A stretch of DNA of 64,000 bases, from the UHGV virus genome UHGV-0214148; one strand, 5' to 3'. The notes under the pieces were generated by a model. That model saw only the letters and a list, made by a program, of their open reading frames with translations, was not told the DNA's origin and ran no database searches. Below, piece after piece: positions 11,998 to 63,383 of this stretch. Made by a program: the position numbers and the translations under genes. This stretch comes from a virus. How positions within the stretch are numbered: position 1 is the first letter of the stretch; each line of letters begins with the position of its first letter.

Positions 11998-12456
11998 TCA
12001 GTACAAACACGATGTCAAGTATTGGTTGTACGAATCGAGTAGTGTCTGACGGTCGGAACGGTAATTCCACAACAAATTATTGAGTTTACGCGATAGGTCA
12101 CGGCTAATCTCCTGGGGCGTTAAAGAGCTTTCGTCAAGAGATAAGCGTTCAGGTACAACATGTAACTTCGGTAACTCATAACGCTCACAAAGTGGAGCCA
12201 GCATTGGTGGGCTCCAGCCACGTTTAACGGCTTGTTGGTTTAAATTTCGGGTGTAGACATAAACGTAGTAAGCATAGGTGTTGACATCCGCAACATACTC
12301 ACGCATTGCATTATTGTCAATTTTCCAATTCACCATTATCGGTGGTGTAGGAGGAAGTTCCAGTGGCCTATAAGCTGGACGTTTAACTTCGTCGCCGTAG
12401 CTATTACTCACCAACCCCATGAACACCATCATGATGAATAACAGCATTTTCATCAA
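11998..12456 (-). CDS. secreted protein with signal peptide (spanin-like candidate)
   Basis: N-terminal MMKMLLFIMMVFMGLVSNSYG is signal-peptide-like; gene abuts the upstream membrane-protein gene. No lipobox Cys. Confidence 0.45.
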   Translation of the reverse strand: MMKMLLFIMMVFMGLVSNSYGDEVKRPAYRPLELPPTPPIMVNWKIDNNAMREYVADVNTYAYYVYVYTRNLNQQAVKRGWSPPMLAPLCERYELPKLHVVPERLSLDESSLTPQEISRDLSRKLNNLLWNYRSDRQTLLDSYNQYLTSCLY

Positions 12457-17172: not shown

Positions 17173-17682
17173 TTAGAAGAACGGCTGATTTGGAATGACA
17201 GCGTACTCTAAAATGAACATATGTTCCGGGGCGTCTTCTTTACGCCAGACTTTGTGTGTCGACACAAGTTTTTCCAGAATCGTTAAGAAACTACGTTGGC
17301 AGTATGTGTTTTCACCAAGCAGTAGATTTTGAAGTTCTACAGTAGCGTCCATATACGCCTGTTTAAAGACTAAACTACGGTTATACTGCCCGGTAAAATT
17401 CCAAAGCAAGACCTTCCCTTCTTCGGTTTCTTTTACCGTTGGCCGTAAACCACAAATCCACAGTAAGGCAAGGTTGACGTTCCAGTCAAACTCTAAACCT
17501 TCTTCTTCGTCAACACCGAATGCTGTGGGTAAAGCATCGTAAAATTCGTGTTTCTCTGCGAATTCTTCATCCGACTTAATCTCGTCTTCGATACTGCTTC
17601 GGACGATACTGTAAACGTCTTTCGCGGTCAATTGTGCGGCTTTTGTAATGCCTTTATACCAATCGGTTACTACGATGCTCAA
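17173..17682 (-). CDS. hypothetical protein
   Basis: 169-aa ORF overlapping the upstream gene by 4 bp. Confidence 0.5.
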   Translation of the reverse strand: MSIVVTDWYKGITKAAQLTAKDVYSIVRSSIEDEIKSDEEFAEKHEFYDALPTAFGVDEEEGLEFDWNVNLALLWICGLRPTVKETEEGKVLLWNFTGQYNRSLVFKQAYMDATVELQNLLLGENTYCQRSFLTILEKLVSTHKVWRKEDAPEHMFILEYAVIPNQPFF

Positions 17683-18377
17683 AGGGTAACTCCTCTATTG
17701 ATTGGAAAACTCGTGTTTATCGTATCCCAAATTCTACTAACTTCCGCCAGTTGAATCTGACGTGGTGTTTTCTTCGCAAACGCAAGCTGACGTGGGGCCG
17801 AGCCCACAACAACAGGCACATCGATTTTCGCGCTATAGAACGCGGCGTCTTTCATAAAGCCTGCCATTTCTCGTTGTGCTGCTCGAGATTTGCTTTTGAT
17901 TCGCGTGTGAGCGCCACTTTCACCCCAGTGGTAAGCTAACGCAACTTCAGCCATGGTGGGCTTGCGTTTGAGTCGTTTGGTTAACCCCTTCTCAAGATGT
18001 TTAACATACGCAGTAGCCAGCAAAACAGCGTTACGCGGATTATACAAATCGGCATTCTGACTAAGACCTAATTCTTTTCCATAAAGCTTTAGCAGATTAC
18101 GCTTGGTACTTGGAAGCATCTGTACCAGGCTGTGTGCTCGTGAGCTTTTGTTGTAAGCCTTGGGATCAAAACGCGATTCACGATAAATCAGTGTAATCAT
18201 CAGCTTGGGATCAACGCCCTGCTTTCGTGAGATTTCCACAATTAACGGGCTGACTTTTTCGAACCGATGTTGGATTTGTGCAAACTCTCGCTGATGCTTA
18301 GAATGTGGCGTTGACGTTGACGCCTGTGCGTTAAACGCGAAAAGTGTTACCAGTAAAAGAAAGAAGATACGAAACAT
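17679..18377 (-). CDS. secreted lytic transglycosylase-like (SLT domain) protein
   Basis: Signal peptide MFRIFFLLLVTLFAFNAQA (start chosen at the ATG preceded by TGGAGAAACAAA), then an SLT-like core RESRFDPKAYNKSSRAHSLVQM and AYVKHL. Confidence 0.55.
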   Translation of the reverse strand: MFRIFFLLLVTLFAFNAQASTSTPHSKHQREFAQIQHRFEKVSPLIVEISRKQGVDPKLMITLIYRESRFDPKAYNKSSRAHSLVQMLPSTKRNLLKLYGKELGLSQNADLYNPRNAVLLATAYVKHLEKGLTKRLKRKPTMAEVALAYHWGESGAHTRIKSKSRAAQREMAGFMKDAAFYSAKIDVPVVVGSAPRQLAFAKKTPRQIQLAEVSRIWDTINTSFPINRGVTL

Positions 18378-18477
18378 TTTGTTTCTCCAGTTGGATTTAT
18401 ACATTTCCGTATTCCGTAAGACGAAATGACGGCGCGGACAGCTAATACTCCTTTGTTGTGTGCCCTAATGATAATAT

Positions 18478-24364: not shown

Positions 24365-24430
24365 TTTAATACTCCTTTAGGTAAATATGTCGTAAAAAGG
24401 ACCCCGGACGTACCGGGGCCAAGACTACAC

Positions 24431-24820
24431 TCAAAGATCTAATTCGATAGCACCAGCCATCTTGCCCCGTTCTTCTATAACGATCAGATAACGGTCGCGA
24501 GATTTGCTTTTAGCGAGAGTTAAGACAACGGTAGGGTCGCACGTTTTCGTGGTGATAGGAAGAACCTCTCTTGCGACGGAATCGAGCAGAAAGTAATAAC
24601 CTGCGGGACACATTGTGCCGCCATCAGCTTTTACCAGAATATAGCGCCCGTCTGCGCCGACTTCTTGGCAGATTGTTTCACCGACTTCGCAAACTTCAAA
24701 CCCCGGAGGATTGTACTGGTAATCGGTATTGTTGTTTGGGGTTAGCAGTAAATCGTTAACTTGAGTAGATGCTGCTACACTCAGGGAGAAGAAGAATGCT
24801 AAAACGCAGACGAGACGCAT
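24431..24820 (-). CDS. small secreted protein (signal peptide)
   Basis: MRLVCVLAFFFSLSVAAS signal-like N-terminus; 129 aa. Confidence 0.5.
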   Translation of the reverse strand: MRLVCVLAFFFSLSVAASTQVNDLLLTPNNNTDYQYNPPGFEVCEVGETICQEVGADGRYILVKADGGTMCPAGYYFLLDSVAREVLPITTKTCDPTVVLTLAKSKSRDRYLIVIEERGKMAGAIELDL

Positions 24821-24830
24821 GAGTTACTCC

Positions 24831-25241
24831 TTAAATTTTAAGTTTATCCATAGCTACAACGATAGGTTTTTCCGAAGTGTCTAATATCCCTACCATTGGC
24901 ACACCATCTACGACTTCGAAGAATGGTTTGTTATTACCAGAGCATAGACGTTTGTCGTTGTATTCGAGACGCTGAGCCTTCCACGTTTCGAGGTTGAGTA
25001 CGGACATTGGGCTGTCGTAGCACCAGGCACCACCTTGCTCAACGATGAATACGTATCTGCTACCTTTGTATTTAAACAGGCTCTTTGCCTGGCAGTACAA
25101 CCCGTCTATTTCCGTACAATAGAAATCATCGGTGCTATTGACGTACTTAATATTGTCTGGCAACTGTATTGTCTTTGCTGTAGCGTTGACAGAGAACAGA
25201 ACAGCCATTGCAATGAGAAGAGTATTAATGATAGTTTTCAT
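24831..25241 (-). CDS. small secreted protein (signal peptide)
   Basis: MKTIINTLLIAMAVLFSVNATA signal-like N-terminus; 136 aa. Confidence 0.5.
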   Translation of the reverse strand: MKTIINTLLIAMAVLFSVNATAKTIQLPDNIKYVNSTDDFYCTEIDGLYCQAKSLFKYKGSRYVFIVEQGGAWCYDSPMSVLNLETWKAQRLEYNDKRLCSGNNKPFFEVVDGVPMVGILDTSEKPIVVAMDKLKI

Positions 25242-25252
25242 GATAAAAGTCC

Positions 25253-25738
25253 TTAGTATTTAGATTGTTCTACGTACTTCTTAACCAGGTAAGCGAATTC
25301 GGCAACACCGATATCACCGAACCAAATCAGGTAACCGGGGTCGATGTTGTAGTAATAACCGACGAGTTTCTTGGTGTGTGGGTTGTATAGCGTTACGATG
25401 TATTCCCAACCACAAGCGTTAGCTTTACAACCGCCACTTTCAATCCAGATTTTGTTGTTGATGTTTACCGGATACATGTTACCGCCAGGGCCATCCATGT
25501 AACCTTTAGAGCCGAACATACCATCCAGTCCCACAGGGTCTAGTGTTTTATCAACAACGGCTTTAAACGACTTATCGGTATCGTACAAGTCGTTGATGTT
25601 TGGGCACGCATTTGGCTGGCCTTCCCAAGCGTTTCCATCACAGGTAAGCAATTCGTCTACGGAGGCCGCATCTACAGTTGGCGTGGCACCGATAAACAAG
25701 AAAACCAGAAAGAACATCAGTGTATGTAAACGTTTCAT
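25253..25738 (-). CDS. small secreted protein (signal peptide)
   Basis: MKRLHTLMFFLVFLFIGATPTVDA signal-like N-terminus; 161 aa. Confidence 0.5.
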   Translation of the reverse strand: MKRLHTLMFFLVFLFIGATPTVDAASVDELLTCDGNAWEGQPNACPNINDLYDTDKSFKAVVDKTLDPVGLDGMFGSKGYMDGPGGNMYPVNINNKIWIESGGCKANACGWEYIVTLYNPHTKKLVGYYYNIDPGYLIWFGDIGVAEFAYLVKKYVEQSKY

Positions 25739-25756
25739 TGTAACTACTCCTTTAGA

Positions 25757-26149
25757 TTATTCGGCAGGACGATTTAAGGTAACGCGTCCGATTAATTCAG
25801 CGTTGTGAAAGAAGTCCACAGCGGTATAGTTACCAACTGATAGCGGATGGATACTAACTGACATTACTTTTGGTTGTTCGCAGGCGATATCCGTCAGGCG
25901 TTGGTAGACTTGTGCACGAGTGTCAGCAATGAGTAATCCCGTACACGTTTCACCACGCACTAAACGATAAACTTGCAGTTTACCGAAACTGCGCATTAAC
26001 GTAGGCGTCTCATCCGGGTTGATAATCGGTGACTCAGGAGCCGGTTCGTAATAGCGGACATCCGAATCACCGAAAGCATAAGTGCCAGTAATTCCGACCG
26101 CACAGAAAACAATGATAGTATAAAGTATAGTTCTGATATTCATTTTCAC
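25757..26149 (-). CDS. small secreted protein (signal peptide)
   Basis: MKMNIRTILYTIIVFCAVGITGTYA signal-like N-terminus; 130 aa. Confidence 0.5.
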   Translation of the reverse strand: MKMNIRTILYTIIVFCAVGITGTYAFGDSDVRYYEPAPESPIINPDETPTLMRSFGKLQVYRLVRGETCTGLLIADTRAQVYQRLTDIACEQPKVMSVSIHPLSVGNYTAVDFFHNAELIGRVTLNRPAE

Positions 26150-26171
26150 GCACTCTAAAAAAGATTAATAC

Positions 26172-26633
26172 TTATTTGTTAGGACGGGTGTGTCCACAGT
26201 TCTGGAAGAAAGTTTCAGATAAACGATCGCCTTCTACGGTAAAGTTAGCGGCATCGTTACCATTGATACTCACACTGAAAGTTTTGGCATTACCGATAGC
26301 AATAACGAAAGCAACCCAAGCGTGTTCTGCCTTGTCGCTACCGTCCACGGTAGGGATGTTATAGGTTTTGCCGTTTACGACAATATCCATCGTGTTATCT
26401 TCAGCGTTAGTTGCACCTACGGGTTCCCCGTAATACCAAACCATGCGACCGTAAAATTTGCGATTCACAGTTTCTGTGTCACAGTTGATAGACAGTCCGT
26501 TTCCGGCGGTGTCTTCGATTTCGTAAACTGCCTGGCCAGGGTTTTGTATTTGTTCCCAACTATTGATTGCAGCGTATGCGCTATTGAGGCCGAAAGTTAA
26601 AATGGTTATTAAGAATGTGATAAAGGTTTTCAT
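26172..26633 (-). CDS. small secreted protein (signal peptide)
   Basis: MKTFITFLITILTFGLNSAYA signal-like N-terminus; 153 aa. Confidence 0.5.
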   Translation of the reverse strand: MKTFITFLITILTFGLNSAYAAINSWEQIQNPGQAVYEIEDTAGNGLSINCDTETVNRKFYGRMVWYYGEPVGATNAEDNTMDIVVNGKTYNIPTVDGSDKAEHAWVAFVIAIGNAKTFSVSINGNDAANFTVEGDRLSETFFQNCGHTRPNK

Positions 26634-26679
26634 TGAAATGCTCCTTCGAGTTATGGGGAAGCTCCCACAAATTATGAAA

Positions 26680-27051
26680 TTAAATAACTGTGTTGGGTAA
26701 TGCTTTAATCTGTGTATAACTATCTCCGATACCTCTTATCATTTCCAGACGCTCTTCTGTAGAAAGGCTTTGGTTAATGTCTTTGTCAAGATTGAACAGT
26801 GTCAAGAGTTTTGCAATTGCAACCGTCAAGTTGTCGGACAGCTCGTTGTTTTTACGCCATTCTTCGTTACGGAAAATAGAGATAAGGTCTTTCGCCTGGC
26901 CTTCAGCGTGCGGTTTGGCTAACTGCGCGTCACGCTGTTCGATAAGGTATGCTTCGTTAGTAAGTAAACGTTTCAGGTTTTCTGGGTTAGTGGCAGCGCG
27001 AGTAACGATCATTAATACAACAAACGGGTCTTTAAATAATTCGTTTTTCAT
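26680..27051 (-). CDS. hypothetical protein
   Basis: 123-aa ORF preceded on its sense strand by the conserved ~76-bp leader repeat. Confidence 0.5.
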   Translation of the reverse strand: MKNELFKDPFVVLMIVTRAATNPENLKRLLTNEAYLIEQRDAQLAKPHAEGQAKDLISIFRNEEWRKNNELSDNLTVAIAKLLTLFNLDKDINQSLSTEERLEMIRGIGDSYTQIKALPNTVI

Positions 27052-27057
27052 CTTTAG

Positions 27058-27133
27058 TTCTCCTAAAATGGTTTTCGTTAAGTGAGAGCTTTTGTACTCT
27101 CACCTAAGTAATATATATCTGAAATTATTTTTA
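27058..27133 (-). repeat. conserved ~76-bp 5' leader cassette, copy 1 (hairpin plus AT-rich 21-bp motif)
   Basis: Nearly identical to 63307-63383; contains the inverted repeat GTGAGAG/CTCTCAC (27082-27103) and TAAGTAATATATATCTGAAAT (27105-27125), directly upstream of the 26680-27051 start. Confidence 0.6.
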
Positions 27134-27144
27134 ATATTAACGAA

Positions 27145-27178
27145 CAAAAAAATAAAAGGTGGGGGTAAACCCCCACCG
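27145..27178 (-). terminator. rho-independent terminator
   Basis: GGTGGGGG-TAAA-CCCCCACC hairpin followed by a T-run on the minus strand after the 27182-27760 stop. Confidence 0.7.
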
Positions 27179-27772: not shown

Positions 27773-28546
27773 CTAATAATTAAGTTTTACATCGGCAATA
27801 AACAGCAATTGTTTACCATGTTGCTGCACTTCTTTCCAACCTAGTTTCATAGCAGCGTCAACAACATCTAACATGCTGTAACGGGACATCAAAGATTCTG
27901 ATTTTGTTCCTGACATTAAGTAAAGTGGCTCATTAGGGCTACGGTCACGTGCGTCAGGAAGTTCCCGAGAGACTGCTGATCCTTCGGGTACGGTAACAAC
28001 ATGAATCACGGTAAATGGTCTCTTGTGCGTCAGATAGATACGAAACCCAACGTGTTCAGATTCATGAAAGACTTTCTTCACAACCACATCTTTTAGTGTC
28101 GTCTGAACATCAGCCCCAGGTAATATCGTGGTTTCACGTGAAACGAAACAACGGCTATTTTCAATCGTGGAGAAATAATTACGTATCGGCAAACTAGCGT
28201 TATGATCGCGCAGTTTTTTGCTCAGTAGATCGAAGTTCAGTTCTTTAACCTTTTCTAGCCATTCTTTGGCTTGTTGAATGTAATAACTACCAACAGCGCG
28301 ATAAGTTAATACCTTACCTGTGCTCACTTGCCAGAGCTTGATGCTTAGTGAATTTGGCTTATAGCGACGATACTCACCACGCGTATAGTTGATGCGCTCG
28401 TAACGCTCTACACCGTCAACGGGTGCAGTTTCGACCGATTGTAATTGCAGCGTACGATCTAATCTATCGGCAAATAGTAGTGATGTTAGCGGGCCTTCGA
28501 TCATATACGGTTCGGTTTTAAAGATATCGTCTAAATGGACTTTCAT
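27773..28546 (-). CDS. hypothetical protein, member of tandem paralog family (conserved C-terminal GW...QLLF motif)
   Basis: C-terminus LGWKEVQQHGKQLLFIADVKLNY resembles the C-termini of the next upstream ORFs. Confidence 0.5.
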   Translation of the reverse strand: MKVHLDDIFKTEPYMIEGPLTSLLFADRLDRTLQLQSVETAPVDGVERYERINYTRGEYRRYKPNSLSIKLWQVSTGKVLTYRAVGSYYIQQAKEWLEKVKELNFDLLSKKLRDHNASLPIRNYFSTIENSRCFVSRETTILPGADVQTTLKDVVVKKVFHESEHVGFRIYLTHKRPFTVIHVVTVPEGSAVSRELPDARDRSPNEPLYLMSGTKSESLMSRYSMLDVVDAAMKLGWKEVQQHGKQLLFIADVKLNY

Positions 28547-28613: not shown

Positions 28614-29765
28614 TTAGAGGTCAGCAACAAACAACAGCTGACTGCCGTATTTTTGCACGTCAGCCCAACCGTAGTCTTTCCCGATTATAGGTAGATGTAA
28701 AATATCCAGCTTCTCGTCTTTCGCTTTTAGTTTCGCCATTAACGCATTGGACTCCTCAGCACTGAGGAGTAATGCTGGCTCTTTTTCAGTACGTCCTTCT
28801 GCGGTTGGGAAGAAATTGTAATAGCTGCGAGTAGGTAAATCGACAGAAAAACTACGATTGCCTATTCTGGCGATGAACGCAACTCCTTCACAGTTAGCAT
28901 CTACACTGCACGACCATCCCGCCTCCGTTAAAAGACCTTTTAACAGACACCACACTTTAAGTTGGTTCTTAGAAACTGTACGGTAAATAGCAAGATGTTC
29001 AGGAAGTAAATGTACGCCCATAACCACGTTTTCAGATTTCTCGTCAAGCAACTCTGGATGCTGTATCGGGAACAATAATTCAGTGATACCCACGTTATCA
29101 ATTTTGTTAACAAAATCAGTTAATTCATCTTTTAAGGTAGACACTTGATTTTCTCCTTTGTCTTCAATAATCAGGTGGGGTTCGCCGCTAATTAAAATGT
29201 GGTAAACGAGATCGTCAGTAGAACGGTAAGTGAGCTTGATTGCTTTATCACTTAATATTTCGTAGCGGAAGAAACTTTCGTACCAACTTGAGCCGAAATC
29301 GTTTTGTGTAAGCTCCTGCTCAACTTTGATGGTTTTTGCTTCAAAGCCGATTAACTCGCTTAATAACGCGAGTTCTTGTTTAGTTAAAATAGCTACACCG
29401 TGAAAGGGCACTTGTTCAAGCTGAAAACATAACTTAGTGACTTCACCATTTGGGAAGACCTTAAACATAATCTTCCGGTTGCTACTCTTTTCCCTAACAA
29501 CGAGTTTACGGTAATTTAGTCCACAATTTGTGTAAGCCGCGAACTGGTAACCTTCAATTTCTTCATCGGAAGTACAGACATCGACAGGCGCGATAATCTC
29601 ATCGTATTCACTAAGTACACAGCAGCCCAATTTATAACCAAACAACGTATGTTGTAAAAAATAGTCGAGGGTTAAGCTTGGTAGTGGCCAAGCCCGATTA
29701 TAGCATCTGTCCATCAGTTCTTTTAGGTACTTGGCATGTCTTGGTTTAGAAATAATATTTCGCAT
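28614..29765 (-). CDS. hypothetical protein, member of tandem paralog family
   Basis: C-terminus YGWADVQKYGSQLLFVADL. Confidence 0.5.
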   Translation of the reverse strand: MRNIISKPRHAKYLKELMDRCYNRAWPLPSLTLDYFLQHTLFGYKLGCCVLSEYDEIIAPVDVCTSDEEIEGYQFAAYTNCGLNYRKLVVREKSSNRKIMFKVFPNGEVTKLCFQLEQVPFHGVAILTKQELALLSELIGFEAKTIKVEQELTQNDFGSSWYESFFRYEILSDKAIKLTYRSTDDLVYHILISGEPHLIIEDKGENQVSTLKDELTDFVNKIDNVGITELLFPIQHPELLDEKSENVVMGVHLLPEHLAIYRTVSKNQLKVWCLLKGLLTEAGWSCSVDANCEGVAFIARIGNRSFSVDLPTRSYYNFFPTAEGRTEKEPALLLSAEESNALMAKLKAKDEKLDILHLPIIGKDYGWADVQKYGSQLLFVADL

Positions 29766-31112: not shown

Positions 31113-31487
31113 GATTTACTCGCTAATCTCAATAAAGGGGAGTCTATTATTATGGATTGTAAAAGAGGTATAAGGAAGTCACTACGTTCCTCTGGGAAGA
31201 GTATGTCGGTATACTACGTATACCTCCGCTATTTATATCCGTATACATAATGCCCCCTACCCCCTACCGGTATCCCGAGTAGCAGAATAAAGGGGCAGAC
31301 TGTAAAATTTTAGTACCTGTTATCGGAAGGTACTAAATGGAGTGTAGTCTTTAAGCCGTTTGAGCAGCTCATTGAGACTTTCTTTCTTTTTAGTAGACAT
31401 GATCTGTCTCCCCAAATGGTTTAATCAATCCGTTTCGAATGAAACGTGTCCGTAGGGGCTGAACTGGCACTTCAGCCCCTATTCACT

Positions 31488-31508
31488 TAAGTAATATATA
31501 TCTGAAAT
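31488..31508 (+). promoter_or_regulatory. third copy of 21-bp AT-rich motif TAAGTAATATATATCTGAAAT, upstream of 31534 start
   Basis: Exact 21-bp match to the motif inside the two leader repeats, 25 bp upstream of a plus-strand ATG; preceded by the hairpin GGGGCTGAA/TTCAGCCCC. Confidence 0.4.
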
Positions 31509-34296: not shown

Positions 34297-37200
34297 ATGG
34301 CTGTCGTCTTAGACCCACACTTCAAAAAACCGGGGAATAAAATAACCGGTGAAGCGGTCGCCGTCATTGGTACGAAATACCGAATGTTGGTACCTGCCCA
34401 CGCCCCTTTTTTCACCACATCCCTGGTGGTCAAGAGCGGCGGCAAAACACTGACCTTAGGCGACGATTACATTATTACACACCCGTACGAGACCGGTATG
34501 TTGCGCACAGCCTATCTCATTCACGGGATGATTTGGATTGTTAATGACAAATACAAATCGAATTTTACGGTAGATTACCACGCCGTTGGTTGTGGTCAGG
34601 CTACCCAACAACAGATTACCGCAGAACGCGAACTCAATAAAGATAAATACCCGACTACGTGTCAGTGGGACACCGTCATCGGGGACGTTTACTTTCCGCC
34701 GGTCGATATCCAGTTCGATTGGGAGAATTGGAAAGGTGAACTGGAATTAATGCAGGCTATTGCTGGATTAGGCGATTCGTTAGGGGAAGTCGTGAGTCGA
34801 CTTAACCCCATCGCACGCAATACCCTGGATTTAGAATACCGTGCTAACAGCAAGGTTATCACTTCCGAGCAGTATGCCGCATACGACAATAAAGGTGGGT
34901 TCACCTACAACACTACCCGTCATCGTTATAGCTTGAGTTATAAAACTGCAACCTTTAACAACTACGCCCTGTCAGTGAAACATAGAATTCCTGCTATTCT
35001 GCCAGACATGACGAAATTGAATCCAAACGAACAGATCGATTGGATGCTCTGTTATGCTAACGGCGGGGCAAGTATTCTACGGCTGCAGCTAAAACAGCGC
35101 AAAATCTCACTGGTCTTAACGGTCGCTATTGGTAGCGGTTCAACAAACTACGATTATACGTTAATCAACGGTTTAACTGACGATGAGTTAAAAAACGATA
35201 TCGATTTTAGTGTAACCCGTCAACCCGGAAACGGTGTTTACGTCATCGTAGTAAAAACAAATAAACAGACCATGGATTATACATTCAATGTCGATACGCC
35301 ACCTGATGAGTTCTCGGCAGGGTATTCGAAAACGGATGTTGCTAAATGGTTGAAGTCTAAAACGAACATTAACCTGAACTGGTATGCTGGACAAAAAGAT
35401 TATGTTCAAATTCGTTCTTTACCCGGTGCACCAGAACCTGACGTCGATAACGATGTTTACCAGTTAATAGTTAAATACCATCAATTAGTTGAGCAGCTGT
35501 ATCGTAACGCGCCTGCACACGAACACGTTACACGTAAGGACAACCCGCACACCGATACGTGGGGCCCGATCCGTGCGTTACAGCTGAATGGTATTGCGTC
35601 GGATGCCGCGTTAGCTTACGGGAAAACGAAACAACAGTTAACGGATTATGTTAATGCTAAGTACCCAACACAAGCAACGTTAACCGCACAGAAAAAACTG
35701 CTTCGTGAATCGGCGAACAAGAACGTTAACGGCACGATTACCACACTTCCGGGTTTTACTTCGTTCACGACGGAAGTTGATCCGGTTTCGATGTCGAAAT
35801 ACGTGAGTCCTCGTTTTAGCGAAAGCTACGTTAGTAATGGTCACAGGTATCACGGTGCGCTTCGTTACACAGGAACGAAGAGTGGATTCGCCACTTCTTT
35901 TAATGCGGTACCTGCCAACCTGCAAGATATTGACTTTATTGTTACCGGACGTAAAACAGCGTCTGGTAATGAAGCTGTCGGTACGGTTAGCCTACGTTTC
36001 TATCAGAAACCTGGTACTAACTCTGGAAAATTTATCCAGCTTACAGGTGAAATTTCTGCGGGTAAAGTCGGCGTTAAGTTGGAACTGAACGGTTTTTCGA
36101 ATACCACACCGGAAGTTCAGTATCTTTCCCAAGCCCCTAATCCAGCAATACCGGATGGGGATTTTACTCTGCGTTTTCAACTGAAACGCACAGGGAACGT
36201 GTTTGATGTCGTTATTACCATAAACGGCAAGACATACAGTGCACGTGTTAACTTCACTAACATGGACGCTGCACTAGAAGCATTGGAGAATAGCCACCAC
36301 TTTAAATCATTGATCAGTAATGTTGCTGACAACGTCACTATTAGCTCGGGGAATAAAGGTAACACGGTTACCATTAAGAAAGCGCCCGACGTCGTTGACG
36401 GGACCCGTTTAGGTGCCCAGTTTGTCGTTGACCCGAAATCCATTAAGTTTATTGGACAAGGTTCAACCGAGGTTAATGCGGGGAATAACCCTGTAACGTT
36501 TCAAGCAGGTACTAACCAACTTATATTGTATCCTGATGATCGTGGGTTACAGTGGCGTGGTAAGAAACTCTTAGACCCCACTACCGTGGCTCCGTATCTG
36601 CCAGGCAATACCGCGGGCGGTACGGGATTATTCTACGGTACATCTACAACCACGGTAGAGCTTACCGGTAGCGGGATAAAAGCATCGCCGTTCGTAGCGA
36701 CTTTTATTCTCCCTACCGCGACCGATACAACAGCCCTGGCAGCTTGGCAGTTGACCGATGAGTTTGGTACCGCTGAAAACCTTGCAGCAACGCCAGCACT
36801 GATTGAAAAACTCGATGCGGAGTTCACCGGTAAATTAGTTGCGGTTAAATCGTACATTAACGACATGCAACTTACCAGCTCGGTCACTATCGACAAAATT
36901 ACCTTTGGTTTAGGTAACGTTGCGAATACACCCGATGTCAATTTACCGATTTCTACAGCACAACGTGCGGAGTTAGATAAATACTCGCCTAAAGTTCACC
37001 AACACCCGTTTACCGCTTTTGGTACTGGGAACGCAACCACAGCGAAACGTGGTCTGATTAAATTTGGTCTGGATGTGGATGATGCGACTTTAGCACTCGA
37101 TGGGAGTGTGGTAATGGCGCAGACTACCCAGATTGAAAAATTGGAAAGTGCTGTCGGGGGTGTTGACTCGGAGGCACGTCTCGACATTATACGTTTTGGT

Positions 37201-38619
37201 AAGTCTGGTAACGACTTAATTGATGTTACGGTCAAAGACAAAATACTGGTTACACTTCCAGCATCAACGTATTTTATCGGTGGCGAAACATACACCGTGC
37301 CGTTGACGACGATTAACGTCAGTGAACGTTTTCCGAAGTTGAATACAGAAATCTACGCGGGGATTTTTGTTGATATTGTTGACAACAAAGCGAAGTACAT
37401 TATTCACGACAGCTACAGTCAAGCTGAAACGGATACCATGACGCGTGTGGGATTAATCGGCGTCAATGACCTTTCTGAAGTGTTCGTTACAGAGATGCGT
37501 AACGTCACACGGCTGGACGATTTCCGTGAACTGAAAGATCACGCTGCTGACGATAACGCGCATATTCACCGCTCCACGACACGTGCAGTGCTTGGGTTAG
37601 CTAACTTAACGGTAGGTGCGCCCTGCTGGGCTTCGGGACTCCAGGCAGTAGTACGTGGTGAAGCAGATTGGCGTTATGTCGTCGGTGGACAGTATAGAGC
37701 CTTAGACGGGGTGAAATACGACCAGCTCGCATCAAAGTGGGTTTTCGATGCGAAAGGGGTAAGTGATAACCTTCATGGTTTTATTCACAACTTATTCCCG
37801 ACTTTCAAAAACGCAGGAATGCGGGTAAGTTGGGAAACAGAAAGCAACGCAAAAACCGGAACAGTGTTAGAAACTGTTTTAGGTTGTTGGAAGAACACCG
37901 ACGGCGAGTTTATGCGGTTGTCATTACTCATCACTCGCGGTTATCGTTTAACTGACAGTAACGGTGAATATTGTTACGCAGGGTTCGGTTTGAACTTCGG
38001 TAGCGGGAAATCGGTAGTGGTAGGTTTCACACCAACGAAGCGTGTTACAGCTGCACCGTGGAGTTCATTACAACCTGACGTAACGTTTACCCACACCCGT
38101 GGTGCAAACAACGCAATAACGTTTAATGCATCGCTGACTTTAGCTGGCACTGTGTATACTATCGTGGTGTTTTTATCCGCGACAGATAAATACGTAAGCT
38201 GTACGGCAGCAGGGGGAACTACGCAGAAAATCCCATTAGCCGACCGTTTAACCGGGTTCAATATCGAACCTATCGTTAACGATCCGTATACCCCTATTTA
38301 CTACGGTTTAGGGGGACTTTATGAGGATGAGGTTCGTGCCAACATCCGCTCTACAGCAGACAGCGCAACTGCGAACAAAGTCTACGGTACGTTGTTGGAC
38401 TATGTTAGCAACTATTCCTCATTAAATCGAGTACGCGTCATGGAATTGGCCGGTGTCAGCTCAGACCCCGAAACGCTTAATGCGTTAGTGGCAACTGAAT
38501 TTAATAACAGCCTGGCGGATTACGCTGCGTTACCGATACCTCCTTATCTTAACAAGGAGCGCGTAATGTCGTTTATCGACACCAACAATAAAGTGCAGGC
38601 GGTAATCATTCGCGATTAA
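34297..38619 (+). CDS. large fiber-like virion protein 1 (putative tail fiber)
   Basis: 1440 aa, Thr/Gly/Asn/Val-rich. Shares with the next three genes an N-terminal pattern PF[FY]...V....G.DY..[LI]. SD TAGGAG precedes the ATG. Confidence 0.55.
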   Translation: MAVVLDPHFKKPGNKITGEAVAVIGTKYRMLVPAHAPFFTTSLVVKSGGKTLTLGDDYIITHPYETGMLRTAYLIHGMIWIVNDKYKSNFTVDYHAVGCGQATQQQITAERELNKDKYPTTCQWDTVIGDVYFPPVDIQFDWENWKGELELMQAIAGLGDSLGEVVSRLNPIARNTLDLEYRANSKVITSEQYAAYDNKGGFTYNTTRHRYSLSYKTATFNNYALSVKHRIPAILPDMTKLNPNEQIDWMLCYANGGASILRLQLKQRKISLVLTVAIGSGSTNYDYTLINGLTDDELKNDIDFSVTRQPGNGVYVIVVKTNKQTMDYTFNVDTPPDEFSAGYSKTDVAKWLKSKTNINLNWYAGQKDYVQIRSLPGAPEPDVDNDVYQLIVKYHQLVEQLYRNAPAHEHVTRKDNPHTDTWGPIRALQLNGIASDAALAYGKTKQQLTDYVNAKYPTQATLTAQKKLLRESANKNVNGTITTLPGFTSFTTEVDPVSMSKYVSPRFSESYVSNGHRYHGALRYTGTKSGFATSFNAVPANLQDIDFIVTGRKTASGNEAVGTVSLRFYQKPGTNSGKFIQLTGEISAGKVGVKLELNGFSNTTPEVQYLSQAPNPAIPDGDFTLRFQLKRTGNVFDVVITINGKTYSARVNFTNMDAALEALENSHHFKSLISNVADNVTISSGNKGNTVTIKKAPDVVDGTRLGAQFVVDPKSIKFIGQGSTEVNAGNNPVTFQAGTNQLILYPDDRGLQWRGKKLLDPTTVAPYLPGNTAGGTGLFYGTSTTTVELTGSGIKASPFVATFILPTATDTTALAAWQLTDEFGTAENLAATPALIEKLDAEFTGKLVAVKSYINDMQLTSSVTIDKITFGLGNVANTPDVNLPISTAQRAELDKYSPKVHQHPFTAFGTGNATTAKRGLIKFGLDVDDATLALDGSVVMAQTTQIEKLESAVGGVDSEARLDIIRFGKSGNDLIDVTVKDKILVTLPASTYFIGGETYTVPLTTINVSERFPKLNTEIYAGIFVDIVDNKAKYIIHDSYSQAETDTMTRVGLIGVNDLSEVFVTEMRNVTRLDDFRELKDHAADDNAHIHRSTTRAVLGLANLTVGAPCWASGLQAVVRGEADWRYVVGGQYRALDGVKYDQLASKWVFDAKGVSDNLHGFIHNLFPTFKNAGMRVSWETESNAKTGTVLETVLGCWKNTDGEFMRLSLLITRGYRLTDSNGEYCYAGFGLNFGSGKSVVVGFTPTKRVTAAPWSSLQPDVTFTHTRGANNAITFNASLTLAGTVYTIVVFLSATDKYVSCTAAGGTTQKIPLADRLTGFNIEPIVNDPYTPIYYGLGGLYEDEVRANIRSTADSATANKVYGTLLDYVSNYSSLNRVRVMELAGVSSDPETLNALVATEFNNSLADYAALPIPPYLNKERVMSFIDTNNKVQAVIIRD

Positions 38620-38632
38620 GGAGAATTTTTTG

Positions 38633-41600
38633 ATGAAAGCGTATCCTTACGATCCTCGGGGGACGAAAACCGAGAATCACTTCTTAGAGGAGCGTATCAT
38701 CGGGTCAGAAAACAACAACGATCGGGTGGTGATTCTAGACCATCGCCCGTTTTTTGAAGATTTAGTCGTCAGACAACCAGGTTCAACCACCCCACTGAGT
38801 CGTGGGGTGGACTACGAACTGCAATATCAGCTGACGGAACTGGATGACTCGGTAGCAGCCAACGTGTATTGTGGGGTACACCTTATCAACCCTTCCATCA
38901 AAGGCATCGTAACCTTTGAAGGACAAATGCTCGGCGGTACGTTCTACGACCCGTTTGTTGATATTCTCGATGAACTGGTGAAATATTTGAATAACCCAGT
39001 CAGTGCTGACTGGTTGTTATTAGAAGGCAGACCGTCGTTATACCCGGCTACGCCTGCGGCAACGTCCTGGGCGGATTTGCTGAACAAAAAATATTTAGCG
39101 TCGGCAGTTCACGATATTGAATTGAAAACCGACGACGCTAACCAGTTAATTAAAGACAAATTAGCTGAAGTTAAAGCGTTAGTCGCCGCGCTGGGTAAAG
39201 AAATCGAGGCATTTAACTACCCGGCACACATCGCGGAAACCAACCCGCACCAAACTACTTCTGCACAGATTAGCGCACATCCTGTTAACTTGAAAACACC
39301 CGACACCTTTATGGCGTACGGGTTAAAGTTGAAAGCACTGACGGATGAACTGAAAGCGTTTCGTTTACCACAGTCAGTTATTGACACGTATATCTCCCAC
39401 TGGATTTCTTCAGAAGTACGGGGTGTGTTTAACTGTACGGTGTCAGGAAACCGTGCACAATTCCGCTCAAAAAACGGTGAGTCAGAAATCATTTTTGCGA
39501 ATGATGGCTTTACGTTAAAATCCAACGGTTCTGTGGTGTTGGCGGTAGGGCATCTGGAGGGAACGGGTGCAGGACGTTACATTAACTGGCGTGCTGGTAA
39601 AAACACCTTACGTATCGAGTCAACAGGCGATGCTTTAGGGATGAACAAACTCACCCTAAACGGTAACCCGTTACTGACTACCACGGCGTTGATGGAATAC
39701 CAACAAGATCCTGATGCTGGCGGGAGCGGCGGCGGTGACCCTGATGACTCGAAGGTGTACATCGAAGGCCGTAATGGGATTAGCTTCACCGGTAAAGGCT
39801 CTCGGACCGATCCTATCGTGGGTACTATCGACCCGACGAAAGCGACAACCGCTGAAAAAGGTGTTGTTAAGCTTAAAACTGGTAAAGGTACAGAAACGGT
39901 TGGGGTTGCAGCAACGCCAGCGTCATTAACACCTTATTCGACCGACCTATCAGGGTATGTGGCTAAAACGACCATGATTAACGGTAAGCCAATGAATGAC
40001 GGCTCCAGGACAATCACGAAAGCTGACCTGGGGTTAGGGCAAGCGGATAACACCGCAGACCTTGACAAACCGTTGTCAACCGAGTTAACTAAGGCGGTTA
40101 GCGGTCTAGCAGATGTAGGCCATCATCACGATTGGTCGGAGTTAGGCATTTATAAAGCTTCTCAATCTGTTTACGGTATTGGACGTTATGCAACTAACCA
40201 GAACGGTTTGGTTGAAAACCGTGCAGTGGTACCGAACATCTTAAAAGAGCTTTCGGCACGTTTAAGTGTGGTCGCTGCGGCAATTGCAAATGCGAAAGAA
40301 GGAACAGTAACGGATTTCGCTGCTGTAAAAGGCGCAGACTGGCGATTTAATAGCCAGGGTACGGCAATCTCCGTTCAGGATTTGAAATATTTCTATTTGC
40401 TGGACGGCACGAAAGGTGACAGTACCGTTACCGGTGCGATTGACCTGCAAACCACCCCGATGTTTAACTGGTTCTCACCGAATAACCAACTTGAGCTGAC
40501 TTGGGCTACGGGTAAGGTGAGTAACGGTACGGGAATCAACTGGACGGGTATTGAAGAACCGCCATTGATGGGGTTCCAGTCTGTCCCGGTAGGTAAAACC
40601 GCTACGCAGATGGGTGACCAGTCAGTTGTTACTGTATTGGCAAAAACGCGTGTAAAAGCATACCAACCGAAGCTCTGGGTTTATGCTGCTGGGGGTGGTC
40701 CGGTTACGGTTTACATTAACGGTATCCAGGCCGCTTCAGGCGAGTCCCCACTCGTTGCGGTGTACGAAACGTCGTCAGACGTTGAAAATTACACAGTGGC
40801 GGTTAAAGCCGAGTGCAGCGACACGACTAAATCCGCAGCGGTACAGTTCGAAGTTTACGATGGTGACTACCCCGTTTATTTCAGTGGTCCTGAAACGCGC
40901 GTAGAGCTTCTCCAGGAGTTTGTTACAACGCACGTAGGGGTTCGTCACTATTTGTACGTTAACATGCTCACAGGCTCTTTGTATTCGCGTGCTGAACCGA
41001 TTCAGAGTATTGCCGTTGACCCAGAGCGCGGTTATATCGGATATGTTGATATCGTTCCTGGTCAGTCTTACGCGAATAAAACTGTGGGGTTTGAAACCAC
41101 GTTTGATTTCGGGAAAAGTGCGGAAGTTAGCGAGCACATCAGCACTCGTAAGGCACACGGACTCAGCGCTGTTGACTGGGCGTTAACGGATAACCCACGG
41201 CTGCCGTTATTAAACCGTGCTATTGCTGAACCAAGAGCGTGTATCTTTAGGAAACCGTTAGCAACCGCTACAGGGGATGTTTTCCATCTTGTCAGTCGCG
41301 GCCTTTATACCTACGCACACAACCAAAACGTGAAGTCGAGTCTTCAATACGTTGTGATACCTGAAGGTGCTACGCCGTATTGTTGGTTTACACCATTTAA
41401 CCCGAAAGAAAACAACGCACCGACATTCGAAGGCTCGTTTGCGTTCGATGTTGACGATGTTGGTGGAACGCAAGCCCTTGCTGCTGCGCCGGATTTGGTT
41501 CTATGCACGTCAACGCAAGGTAGCAGCGTTAAACGTCGCTATCTGCGCATTGACCTAACTACCAAAACCTGTAAGTTGGGGATTGGTTCCCGTTCAGATT

Positions 41601-42814: not shown

Positions 42815-42900
42815 GACAGACTGCCTGCGGGCAGTTGTGTGTCCGTAGGTAACCCCTCCCTGTAATGGGGAGGGGTATCCATTTTATTTAAAAGTAGGAG
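42815..42900 (+). terminator. intra-operon hairpin/terminator-like element
   Basis: CCCCTCCC-TGTAATG-GGGAGGGG hairpin followed by TATCCATTTTATTT between fiber genes 2 and 3. Confidence 0.45.
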
Positions 42901-42908
42901 TCTTTACG

Positions 42909-56222: not shown

Positions 56223-56705
56223 ATGCTAAAACGTTTTCTATTTGTTGTAACTGCAGCACTTTCGTTGGCAAGCTGTGCCCTACAACCCACCGCTAACGGT
56301 CAATTCTCGACTGTACCCGTAGAGCCACACGACATGGTTATTTACACCTGTATGGGTGTAGAGCAAGATTTTGTAAATTATAAACCTGTCGTCAATTCGA
56401 CTAACCTAATGTTAGGCTCAGTAACTGTAATCGATACTGGTGCTAACTGGGTAGCCACCTGGCCAAATGGTAAGATTGAGTCACCCCAACTTTATAAAGA
56501 TCTATTAGGTAAAGTTAATGGAAATATCGATCCTATCACGGGACAACGTTACTACCGTGTAAATGGGTTACTTTCAAAAACACCAACATTTGCGTATTCT
56601 ACTTTAGAATATAAAACGGGTGATGGTAAAGGCATTACTTTCTTCCACTGTAAAGAAGGTGTAGCGTCTGACACTGGAACAATGCTCCATCCTGCGGAAC
56701 AATAA
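56223..56705 (+). CDS. putative lipoprotein
   Basis: MLKRFLFVVTAALSLASCALQP carries a lipobox-like LASC after a hydrophobic signal sequence. Confidence 0.5.
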   Translation: MLKRFLFVVTAALSLASCALQPTANGQFSTVPVEPHDMVIYTCMGVEQDFVNYKPVVNSTNLMLGSVTVIDTGANWVATWPNGKIESPQLYKDLLGKVNGNIDPITGQRYYRVNGLLSKTPTFAYSTLEYKTGDGKGITFFHCKEGVASDTGTMLHPAEQ

Positions 56706-63306: not shown

Positions 63307-63383
63307 TTCTCCTAAAATGGTTTTTCGTTAAGTGAGAGCTTTTGTACCCTCACCTAAGTAATATATATCTGAAATTATTTTTA
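63307..63383 (-). repeat. conserved ~76-bp 5' leader cassette, copy 2
   Basis: Near-identical to 27058-27133 (one substitution in the hairpin arm, one extra T), directly upstream of the 62794-63300 start. Confidence 0.6.

What the first reader, a model, noticed from the sequence alone, without database searches (positions are those of the whole stretch)
24431..26633. Tandem array of five small genes each encoding a signal-peptide protein
Five consecutive minus-strand genes (129-161 aa) each begin with a typical Sec signal peptide and have Gly/Asn/Tyr/Cys-containing mature domains. A block of exported small proteins in a lytic phage suggests periplasmic or envelope functions such as superinfection exclusion, receptor masking, or inhibition of host envelope defence.
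Basis: partly seen in the sequence, partly recalled or inferred. Interest (0 to 1): 0.6.

Follow-up and report, generated by a model that had tools for sequence, protein, structure and literature searches.

The report
Early operon of exported phage proteins
A giant E. coli phage makes a set of five small proteins that are sent into the space around the cell wall; one has the fold of a known bacterial lysozyme inhibitor and, with its neighbour, is a two-gene cassette also found in nearly half of E. coli genomes, so the set probably shields the cell wall of the infected cell against rival phages.

Summary
In detail: five back-to-back minus-strand genes (24431-26633) each start with a Sec-type signal peptide and have an even number of cysteines in the mature part. 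It is not a tandem duplication. P1 and P2 are paralogs, P5 belongs to the YfjT family, P3 has the Ivy (lysozyme / lytic-transglycosylase inhibitor) fold with a CKANAC loop aligned on Ivy's CKPHDC, and P4 is a phage-specific family. With an upstream 123-aa gene they form one unit between two terminators. It sits behind a 26-nt AT-rich motif that heads the same block in SPN3US- and Erskinevirus-like jumbo phages and looks like their early (virion RNA polymerase) promoter. The SPN3US orthologs are absent from the virion proteome. P3+P2 is a cassette shared at 69-79% nucleotide identity with CP4-type islands in about 45% of complete E. coli genomes. A preprint reports that knocking down an Ivy-like E. 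coli gene with a CKANTC loop, probably one of these homologs, raises T7 plating. Best reading: an early periplasmic shield, with P3 blocking cell-wall-cutting enzymes of incoming phages, like T4 Spackle but with another fold. The main rival is control of the phage's own Sec-exported SLT endolysin. No biochemical function was tested, and P1, P2, P4 and P5 have no assigned activity.

The parts
27158..27177 (-). Intrinsic terminator ending the upstream gene (192 aa); upstream boundary of the unit
   Evidence: 8-bp stem with 7 GC pairs, followed by a T-run
27100..27125 (-). 26-nt AT-rich conserved motif ATTTCAGATATATATTACTTAGGTGA; presumed early (virion RNA polymerase) promoter of the unit
   Evidence: Three copies in the window against 0 expected. 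The same motif heads the orthologous block in SPN3US, STsAS, pEa29, Asesino, phiEaH2 and 8 IMG/VR or metagenome relatives. It resembles published early-promoter motifs of RNAP-encoding jumbo phages. Early timing is inferred, not measured.
26680..27051 (-). 123-aa first gene of the unit; no signal peptide; present in only some relatives
   Evidence: ORF and SD; phrog_27024, unknown function; absent in L019 and L065-68, present in L022 and L064
26172..26633 (-). P5: exported 153-aa protein of the YfjT family (PF27224), 2 conserved Cys
   Evidence: 87.6% identical to a phage protein with a precomputed PF27224 hit. BLASTP against K-12 YfjT gives 24% identity, E = 8e-15. The P5-family profile hits K-12 YfjT at 2e-49. 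15 homologs in 1.8 billion representatives.
25757..26143 (-). P4: exported 128-aa protein (phrog_9424), 2 mature Cys; conserved first gene of the core block in all relatives
   Evidence: Similarity to P1 and to lipoprotein YfjS is only weak.
25253..25738 (-). P3: exported 161-aa Ivy-fold protein with a disulfide loop C104-K-A-N-A-C109
   Evidence: AF2 pLDDT 85, pTM 0.80. The top 8 Foldseek PDB hits are all Ivy, and the next hit has E > 0.5. Sub-threshold Ivy hits in Pfam and NCBIfam. hhalign places CKANAC on CKPHDC.
24831..25241 (-). P2: exported 136-aa protein, 4 conserved Cys, paralog of P1; forms a cassette with P3 that is shared with E. coli islands
   Evidence: hhalign between families 72-97%. 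An island homolog 66-68% identical lies next to the Ivy-like gene. AF2 model is all-beta, pLDDT 71.5, with no specific fold match.
24431..24820 (-). P1: exported 129-aa protein, 4 conserved Cys, paralog of P2 (phrog_5248)
24400..24420 (-). Intrinsic terminator ending the unit, 10 nt after the P1 stop codon
   Evidence: 8-bp stem with 7 GC pairs
17679..18404 (-). Context, not part of the operon: 241-aa SLT lytic transglycosylase with its own Sec signal peptide (putative endolysin); candidate target under the rival explanation
   Evidence: Pfam SLT 4.9e-15, phrog_4067; N-terminus ...FAFNAQA|STS; annotated as putative endolysin in relatives

Best explanation
The five genes, together with an upstream 123-aa gene, form one transcription unit of a jumbo E. 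coli phage related to SPN3US. The unit is probably transcribed early by the virion RNA polymerase. Its five small products are exported by Sec into the periplasm and stabilised there by disulfide bonds.

One product, P3, is a divergent member of the Ivy structural family. Ivy proteins insert a disulfide-clamped loop into the active site of lysozymes and lytic transglycosylases. I propose that P3, probably with its cassette partner P2 and perhaps the other three proteins, binds and blocks peptidoglycan-cutting enzymes that other phages carry on their tails or internal cores. An already infected cell then cannot be penetrated again. This is superinfection exclusion at the cell wall: the same job as T4 Spackle, done with a different fold.

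The same P3+P2 cassette sits in CP4-type islands of about 45% of E. coli genomes, where it would act as a host defence.

Shown here: the gene structure, the signal-peptide-like N-termini, the family relationships, the Ivy fold and loop, the conserved promoter-like motif and terminators, and the sharing with islands. Taken from the literature: absence of the SPN3US orthologs from virions, and the knock-down effect of an Ivy-like E. coli gene with a CKANTC loop on T7. Inferred: early timing, actual export, the molecular target, and any role for P1, P2, P4 and P5.

The confidence given (0.45) is for the proposed function. For 'exported early operon containing an Ivy-fold protein' I would give about 0.85.
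For: - ORFs, spacing and SD sequences.
- Signal-peptide features, and a run of five with P = 2.7e-4.
- Even mature Cys counts, conserved in orthologs.
- Terminators bracketing the unit.
- 26-nt motif present 3 times in the window (0 expected) and conserved at the head of the block in phages that otherwise share no nucleotide similarity. It matches the description of early vRNAP promoters (PMC5312081; PMC7598289).
- P3 model with pLDDT 85. Top 8 PDB hits are all Ivy, probability 1.00, TM 0.58-0.69.
- 7 of 12 P3-family members hit Pfam Ivy below threshold. NCBIfam Ivy E = 1.3e-3. CKANAC aligns on CKPHDC.
- Ivy inhibits lytic transglycosylases as well as lysozyme: PMC3660660 and PMC10139938.
- An Ivy-like E. 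coli O121 protein with a CKANTC loop, the same loop as homologs P0042/43/46: knock-down raises T7 plating efficiency (bioRxiv 10.1101/2024.04.20.590424).
- The P3+P2 cassette is adjacent in islands and 79% / 69% nucleotide-identical to the phage copies. It is in 2330-2452 of 5426 E. coli genomes. Its neighbours are anti-restriction, RadC and CbtA/CbeA genes.
- One phage lineage's P3 allele is 85-92% identical to island alleles but 65% identical to the window allele, which indicates repeated exchange.
- SPN3US gp180-183 are absent from the virion proteome.
- T4 Spackle is the precedent: PMC7677548.
Against: - No biochemical or genetic test of this phage's proteins exists.
- P3 fails the curated sequence thresholds for Ivy. 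It also lacks the loop histidine that Ivy inserts into lysozyme (Asn instead), so its target may differ or it may not inhibit at all.
- E. coli Ivy is only a weak lytic-transglycosylase inhibitor in one study.
- The T7 result is a CRISPRi knock-down in a preprint, on a longer (about 225-aa) variant. I matched that variant to the family only by its loop motif and Ivy-like fold, not by sequence. Polar effects on the downstream P2-like gene are possible.
- P1, P2, P4 and P5 have no functional annotation. The P2 model found no inhibitor-like fold. PADLOC has no match.
- Early expression is inferred from a motif only.
- SPN3US-like phages lack the Ivy-like gene and carry a P1/P2 paralog (F85) in its place, so the Ivy-type activity is not the conserved core of the block.
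- Signal peptides were judged by a simple rule, not by SignalP.
Confidence: 0.45

Rival explanations
1. Lysis-clock control. The exported proteins, above all Ivy-like P3, bind the phage's own Sec-exported SLT lytic transglycosylase (the putative endolysin at 17679-18404). They keep it inactive in the periplasm until late in infection, so they set lysis timing rather than exclude other phages.
For: The window encodes an SLT-domain enzyme with a classical signal peptide. Relatives annotate it as the endolysin. It is conserved in the same phage groups that carry the block. Ivy-family proteins inhibit lytic transglycosylases. A secreted endolysin needs some restraint.
Against: The P3+P2 cassette is common in E. 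coli islands that have no such endolysin, so the family's function does not depend on it. SPN3US and Erskinevirus keep the exported endolysin but have no Ivy-like gene. The knock-down of an Ivy-like E. coli gene with a CKANTC loop points to an effect on an unrelated incoming phage. No interaction was tested.
Confidence: 0.2
2. Exported accessory ('moron'-like) proteins with some other envelope role unrelated to peptidoglycan hydrolases. Examples: masking or modifying a receptor, tuning envelope stress responses, or protecting against colicins, tailocins or type VI effectors. P3's Ivy fold would then be reused as a binding scaffold for a different partner.
For: Four of the five proteins have no recognisable function. 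P3 lacks the Ivy loop histidine. YfjT and YfjS are uncharacterised island proteins. Alleles are swapped between close relatives: P5 is 72% identical where its neighbours are 91-99%. That is typical of genes in an arms race, but it does not say which one.
Against: The loop C-K-x-x-x-C-G and the following strand are conserved in register with Ivy. The only functional datum for what appears to be a homolog is an anti-phage effect.
Confidence: 0.25
3. The hydrophobic N-termini are not cleaved signal peptides. The proteins would be membrane-anchored, or virion or assembly components, rather than soluble periplasmic factors.
For: No dedicated predictor was run. The P4 site (TYA|F) is less canonical, and its Erskinevirus orthologs read TYI|Y or TYL|V.
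Against: The n/h/c architecture and small-x-small sites are conserved across orthologs. Mature cysteines are paired. Ivy is a periplasmic protein. SPN3US orthologs are not detected among the virion proteins listed in Table S4, which has no entry between gp173 and gp193.
Confidence: 0.05

Closest known systems
Ivy (inhibitor of vertebrate lysozyme; Pfam PF08816, NCBIfam NF007443; PDB 1GPQ, 1XS0, 1UUZ, 4PS6)
   Same: P3 shares the fold (Foldseek top 8 hits) and a Sec signal peptide. It has a six-residue disulfide loop C-K-x-x-x-C followed by G and a beta-strand, aligned in register with CKPHDC-G. Sub-threshold sequence hits point the same way.
   Different: Only 12-17% identity, below the curated cut-offs. 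The loop reads CKANAC, so the His that enters the lysozyme active site is missing. P3 has an extra N-terminal disulfide (C33-C45). It is encoded by a lytic jumbo phage and by mobile islands rather than as a core Rcs-regulated gene. It is paired with a second exported protein (P2). No viral Ivy-fold protein was found in BFVD.
Bacteriophage T4 Spackle (Sp), the periplasmic inhibitor of the gp5 tail lysozyme
   Same: A small, early, signal-peptide-bearing periplasmic phage protein that blocks the cell-wall-cutting enzyme of a superinfecting phage (PMC7677548). This is the proposed way of working.
   Different: No sequence or fold relation was found. Spackle did not appear among the fold-search hits for P3. 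Spackle is a single gene, whereas this is a five-gene block. The target and the activity are untested here.
E. coli island cassette: Ivy-like protein with a CKANTC, CKAHAC or CKSNAC loop, plus an adjacent 136-aa exported protein (hypo_04657 of E. coli O121 in bioRxiv 10.1101/2024.04.20.590424 appears to be the Ivy-like member)
   Same: 58-66% protein identity to P3 and 66-68% to P2. Same gene order. 69-79% nucleotide identity across both genes.
   Different: Chromosomal, in CP4-type islands between dynamin / RdcB / patatin genes and DUF932 / anti-restriction / RadC / CbtA-CbeA genes. Many copies carry a 65-aa N-terminal extension derived from a neighbouring exported gene. There it would act as a host factor against phage, not as a phage gene.
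YfjS-YfjT / YafY-YkfB module of E. coli K-12 cryptic prophages CP4-57 and CP4-6
   Same: P5 is a YfjT-family member. In Yersinia rohdei a homolog of the P1/P2 paralog family (F85) occupies the YfjS position next to YfjT. P4 and P1 show a weak two-cysteine resemblance to YfjS.
   Different: YfjS/YafY are lipoproteins, and PF20494 does not hit P1, P2 or P4. The function of YfjS and YfjT is unknown.

Membership tests
Ivy family (PF08816 / NF007443) | Three-dimensional fold: central antiparallel beta-sheet flanked by helices | tested here: met
   AF2 model of mature P3 has pLDDT 85 and pTM 0.80. Foldseek against PDB ranks 1-8 are all Ivy entries, E 6e-4 to 4e-2, probability 1.00, TM 0.55-0.69. Rank 9 has E = 0.55.
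Ivy family (PF08816 / NF007443) | Sequence score above the curated family threshold | tested here: not met
   P3 has no Pfam hit at E <= 10. 7 of 12 relatives hit PF08816 only at E >= 0.0077. NCBIfam NF007443 gives 18.6 bits against a cut-off of 180. A PDB profile search found no Ivy.
Ivy family (PF08816 / NF007443) | Protruding six-residue disulfide loop (CKPHDC) at the beta-hairpin | tested here: met
   P3 C104-KANA-C109 lies between model strands 72-80 and 88-95. hhalign aligns it column for column with CKPHDC-G of E. coli Ivy (E = 5.9e-4, probability 29%).
Ivy family (PF08816 / NF007443) | Loop histidine that enters the lysozyme active site | tested here: not met
   P3 has Asn at that position (CKANAC). 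The family varies: CKAHAC, CKSNAC, CKANTC, CKSDAC.
Ivy family (PF08816 / NF007443) | Periplasmic location through a Sec signal peptide | tested here: inconclusive
   N-terminus MKRLHTLMFFLVFLFIGATPTVDA|A fits the n/h/c and AXA rule. No dedicated predictor or experiment.
Ivy family (PF08816 / NF007443) | Inhibition of C-type lysozyme or lytic transglycosylase | not testable with these tools
   Needs purified protein and an enzyme assay.
YfjT family (PF27224), for P5 | Sequence match to the family model or its members | tested here: met
YfjS/YafY lipoprotein domain (PF20494), for P4, P1 and P2 | Sequence match to the family model | tested here: not met
   No PF20494 hit at E <= 1 for P1, P2 or P4, while K-12 YfjS scores 1.4e-68. 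hhalign probabilities are only 2-10%, although both cysteines align.
YfjS/YafY lipoprotein domain (PF20494), for P4, P1 and P2 | Lipobox (L-x-x-C) lipoprotein signal | tested here: not met
   P1, P2 and P4 have AXA-type sites and no lipobox cysteine at the cleavage site.
T4 Spackle-type superinfection exclusion protein | Homology (sequence or fold) to Spackle | tested here: not met
   No PHROG or Pfam link. The P3 fold search returns Ivy only. The P2 model returns only weak beta-propeller-blade matches.
T4 Spackle-type superinfection exclusion protein | Early, exported, non-virion phage protein | tested here: inconclusive
   Early-promoter-like motif. Signal peptides. SPN3US orthologs absent from virions. 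Timing and export were not measured.
Other periplasmic lysozyme inhibitors (PliC/MliC and similar), for P1, P2, P4 and P5 | Sequence match to a Pfam or NCBIfam family | tested here: not met
Known anti-phage defence systems (PADLOC-DB 2.0) | Match to any defence-protein model | tested here: not met
   No hit at E <= 1 for P1-P5, P0033 or P0014.

The most novel reading that the evidence does not exclude
The block is a modular periplasmic 'anti-lysin shield'. It would be a set of unrelated small exported binders (Ivy-like, P1/P2 family, P4, YfjT-like), each neutralising a different class of cell-wall-attacking enzyme: phage tail or core lysins, and perhaps type VI or bacteriocin muramidases. The modules are traded as cassettes between jumbo phages and CP4-type islands. 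If so, the very common and so far unannotated E. coli genes (P3+P2 cassette in about 45% of genomes, and the YfjS/YfjT modules) form a widespread envelope-level anti-phage defence that current defence catalogues miss.
Probability: 0.2. Interest if true: 0.8.

Novelty: new variant of a known kind. Interest (0 to 1): 0.62.

Why it matters
[quoted passage not shown] I found nothing on it for nucleus-forming jumbo phages, which are of interest for therapy because they evade DNA-targeting defences.

If P3 is a working inhibitor, it would be a phage-encoded Ivy-type protein. No viral protein in BFVD shares the fold.

It would also give a testable function to a pair of 'hypothetical' genes present in nearly half of sequenced E. 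coli, including the probiotic strain Nissle 1917, and to the YfjT-type genes of the K-12 cryptic prophages.

Practically, such cassettes could lower the efficacy of therapeutic phages that depend on tail or core lysins. They could also explain strain-to-strain differences in plating.

The conserved 26-nt motif is also a ready marker for presumed early operons in this phage group.

Tried and rejected
- Nucleotide searches of the block against GenBank phages found nothing (near mode) or only a 190-nt patch (distant mode). tblastn of P3 and P5 against phages found nothing.
- The first homolog search with P1 gave only 5 near-identical hits. A family alignment was needed.
- P3 family against P1/P2 family: no relation. 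The positional swap of P3 for the F85 paralog in SPN3US-like phages is therefore replacement, not divergence.
- P3-family and P5-family profiles against PDB sequences: no meaningful hits. Pfam on P5 relatives gave noise only. PADLOC gave nothing.
- I suspected that P4, P1 and P2 are YfjS-like. hhalign aligns both cysteines, but probabilities are 2-10%. The one genome-contig scan returned only YfjS copies 88-100% identical, which gave no extra sensitivity. I leave this open and do not claim it.
- The 180-aa island protein against the P1/P2 family: not significant.
- One viral scan failed because the alignment was too divergent.
- No SPN3US transcriptome and no literature on signal peptides in SPN3US were found. 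gp180-183 are not discussed in the SPN3US papers. YfjT has no functional literature.
- Sigma-70 promoter scan: fewer sites than in shuffles, none useful.
Full report
**1. What is in the sequence**

One search lists five minus-strand ORFs at exactly the reported coordinates:
- P1, 24431-24820, 129 aa
- P2, 24831-25241, 136 aa
- P3, 25253-25738, 161 aa
- P4, 25757-26149, 130 aa
- P5, 26172-26633, 153 aa

They are 10-22 nt apart and mostly preceded by AGGAG. P4 probably starts at the ATG at 26143, as its orthologs do.

Every N-terminus has a basic start, a 13-16-residue uncharged hydrophobic core and a small-x-small site. With the same rule only 8 of 71 ORFs in the window look like this. A run of five has permutation P = 2.7e-4. 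The mature parts hold 4, 4, 4, 2 and 2 cysteines, as expected for disulfide-bonded periplasmic proteins. Cysteine is 2.7% of mature residues against 1.0% in the rest of the window. SignalP was not available, so export is well supported but not proven.

**2. Which phage**

There is no nucleotide match in GenBank phages. The proteins are 45-53% identical to those of Salmonella phage SPN3US (Seoulvirus) and of Erwinia phages Asesino and phiEaH2 (Erskinevirus), with the same gene order next to the SbcC/SMC-like gene. Near-identical genomes exist as IMG/VR contigs of about 225 kb. A 221,873-bp circular "plasmid" of an E. coli urine isolate carries the whole block at 80% nucleotide identity. The host is therefore most likely E. 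coli.

**3. The transcription unit**

Strong terminators on the minus strand lie at 27177-27158 and 24420-24400. They bracket a 123-aa gene without a signal peptide (26680-27051) plus P5 to P1.

Fifty-seven nucleotides upstream of the 123-aa gene lies ATTTCAGATATATATTACTTAGGTGA. This 26-mer occurs three times in the window against zero expected. The same motif heads the orthologous block in SPN3US (between gp179 and gp180), STsAS, pEa_SNUABM_29, Asesino, phiEaH2 and all metagenomic relatives, although these genomes share no other nucleotide similarity.

Published work states that RNAP-encoding jumbo phages carry a highly conserved AT-rich motif of about 10 nt upstream of early operons, and that it proved to be the virion-RNAP promoter wherever it was tested. 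AR9 has AAATATATATTAT-N6-G (PMC5312081; PMC7598289). I therefore infer that the block is an early operon. This was not measured.

**4. Not one family but several**

- Profile comparison shows that P1, P2 and the SPN3US gp181 family (F85) are paralogs with four conserved cysteines (hhalign 72-97%).
- P4 (phrog_9424) is conserved in all relatives. Its link to P1 is only weak.
- P5 is a YfjT-family protein. It is 87.6% identical to a phage protein with a stored PF27224 hit. It matches K-12 YfjT directly and by profile. The local Pfam copy lacks that model.
- P3 has no PHROG or Pfam hit.

Block composition varies among relatives:
- Window lineage: [123 aa] and/or P5, then P4-P3-P2-P1.
- SPN3US: P4-F85-P2-P1.
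- Erskinevirus: two other genes, then P4-F85-P2-P1.

**5. P3 has the Ivy fold**

With 12 homologs the AlphaFold model of mature P3 reached pLDDT 85 and pTM 0.80. Foldseek against the PDB put eight Ivy chains (4PS6, 1UUZ, 1GPQ, 1XS0) in ranks 1-8, with probability 1.00 and TM 0.55-0.69. Rank 9 had E = 0.55.

Sequence evidence is weak but consistent:
- 7 of 12 family members hit Pfam Ivy below threshold.
- NCBIfam's Ivy model scores E = 1.3e-3 for P3 and 3.9e-4 for an E. coli homolog.
- hhalign places P3's C-K-A-N-A-C-G exactly on Ivy's C-K-P-H-D-C-G. I checked my recalled Ivy sequence against PDB 1GPQ.

P3 is thus a divergent Ivy-fold protein. It fails the curated family cut-offs and lacks the loop histidine. 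Relatives carry CKAHAC, CKSNAC, CKANTC or CKSDAC. No viral structure in BFVD resembles it (best E = 0.24).

The P2 model was weaker (pLDDT 71.5). It matched only generic beta-propeller blades.

**6. Link to bacterial islands**

P3 homologs of 58-66% identity are chromosomal E. coli proteins. They lie in CP4-type islands between dynamin-like GTPase / RdcB(YjcZ) / patatin genes and DUF932 / anti-restriction / RadC / DUF987 / CbeA-CbtA genes.

In many islands the Ivy-like gene is followed directly by a 136-aa exported protein that is 66-68% identical to P2. The two-gene stretch is 79% nucleotide-identical to one phage relative and 69% to the window.

blastn of the whole block against 5,426 complete E. 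coli genomes matches only window 25749-24806, which is P3 plus P2. It does so in 2,452 genomes, with up to four copies, all annotated "hypothetical".

One phage lineage's P3 allele is 85-92% identical to island alleles but 65% identical to the window allele, so exchange has happened more than once.

A homolog of the F85 paralog sits in a Yersinia rohdei island in the YfjS position, next to YfjT. K-12 CP4-57 and CP4-6 carry YfjS-YfjT and YafY-YkfB at the equivalent place. Three of the block's families are therefore shared with one slot of these islands.

**7. Functional evidence from elsewhere**

- Ivy inhibits C-type lysozyme, and also lytic transglycosylases, weakly in E. coli.
- A preprint on host factors for T7 describes E. 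coli O121 Hypo_04657 as Ivy-like with a CKANTC loop, the loop of homologs P0042/43/46. It reports that knocking the gene down raises T7 fitness and plating efficiency. I matched it to the P3 family by the loop motif and the Ivy-like fold, not by sequence.
- The SPN3US virion mass-spectrometry table has no entry between gp173 and gp193. The orthologs gp180-183 are therefore not virion proteins.
- T4 Spackle shows that an early periplasmic phage protein can exclude superinfecting phage by inhibiting the tail lysozyme.

**8. Interpretation**

The most economical reading is an early operon that fills the periplasm of the infected cell with small disulfide-bonded binders. At least P3, and probably its cassette partner P2, would block peptidoglycan-cutting enzymes of incoming phages.

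I give this function about 0.45. The P3 fold assignment is solid, but the activity, the target and the timing are all inferred, and four proteins remain functionally blank.

**9. Main rival**

The main rival comes from a gene 6 kb away. ORF 17679-18404 is an SLT lytic transglycosylase with its own classical signal peptide, and relatives annotate it as the endolysin. An Ivy-type inhibitor could restrain this secreted enzyme and set lysis time.

Two points count against this:
- The cassette thrives in bacterial islands without such an enzyme.
- SPN3US-like phages keep the exported endolysin but carry no Ivy-like gene.

The two roles are not exclusive.

**10. Novelty**

The way of working has a precedent in Spackle. 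The fold is known from Ivy, and the E. coli homolog has been noted once in a preprint. As far as the searched literature and structure libraries show, these points are new:
- an Ivy-fold gene in a phage;
- its pairing with the P1/P2 family as a mobile cassette;
- its placement in a conserved, early-promoter-headed block of exported proteins in SPN3US-type jumbo phages;
- the very high prevalence of the cassette in E. coli.

I rate it a new variant of a known kind, with interest 0.62.

Noticed in passing
window 17679-18404 (-): 241-aa SLT-domain lytic transglycosylase with a classical cleavable-looking Sec signal peptide (…FAFNAQA|STS). Relatives annotate it as the putative endolysin. A Sec-exported endolysin in a jumbo phage raises the question of how it is held inactive.
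   Followed up: partly
window 31483-31508 (-) and 63350-63375 (-): Two further copies of the 26-nt early-promoter-like motif. The copy at 63350 shares the whole leader of about 85 nt, down to the Shine-Dalgarno sequence, with the copy upstream of the exported-protein unit. This suggests a duplicated promoter-leader module.
   Followed up: partly
L074 (NZ_CP173450.1, 'plasmid p98232-contig_4', 221,873 bp circular): A relative of this jumbo phage is deposited as a circular plasmid of an E. coli urine isolate. It carries the whole block at 79.8% nucleotide identity. It is either a carried or pseudolysogenic phage, or phage DNA co-assembled with the isolate.
   Followed up: no
L013 7098-7640 and L072 6001-6672: In E. 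coli islands a 180-aa exported, Cys-rich protein lies upstream of the Ivy-like gene. In the 223-227-aa Ivy-like variants its first ~65 residues are fused in front of the Ivy-like signal peptide, apparently by deletion.
   Followed up: partly
window 27773-28546 (-) and 28614-29765 (-): Two adjacent genes (257 and 383 aa) end in the same module of about 60 aa (…G(K/S)QLLF(I/V)AD…, phrog_26772). They are local paralogs of unknown function just upstream of the unit.
   Followed up: no
window 11998-12456 (-) and 56223-56705 (+): Two more ORFs with strong signal-peptide-like N-termini (phrog_8165 and phrog_9559, both of unknown function), outside the block.
   Followed up: no
L064-L068 compared with window 24431-27051: Mosaic divergence among close relatives. 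In L065, P5 is 72% identical while its neighbours are 91-99%. In L066/L067, P3 is 65-67% and P2 75-76% identical while P4 is 92-94%. This pattern fits allele replacement in the exported genes.
   Followed up: partly
window 34297-48095 (+): Three very large adjacent genes (1440, 1394 and 1728 aa). The two I scanned (1440 and 1728 aa) share virion-structural PHROG families (phrog_7557, 7449, 2163, 8078), so they form a paralogous set of giant virion proteins.
   Followed up: no
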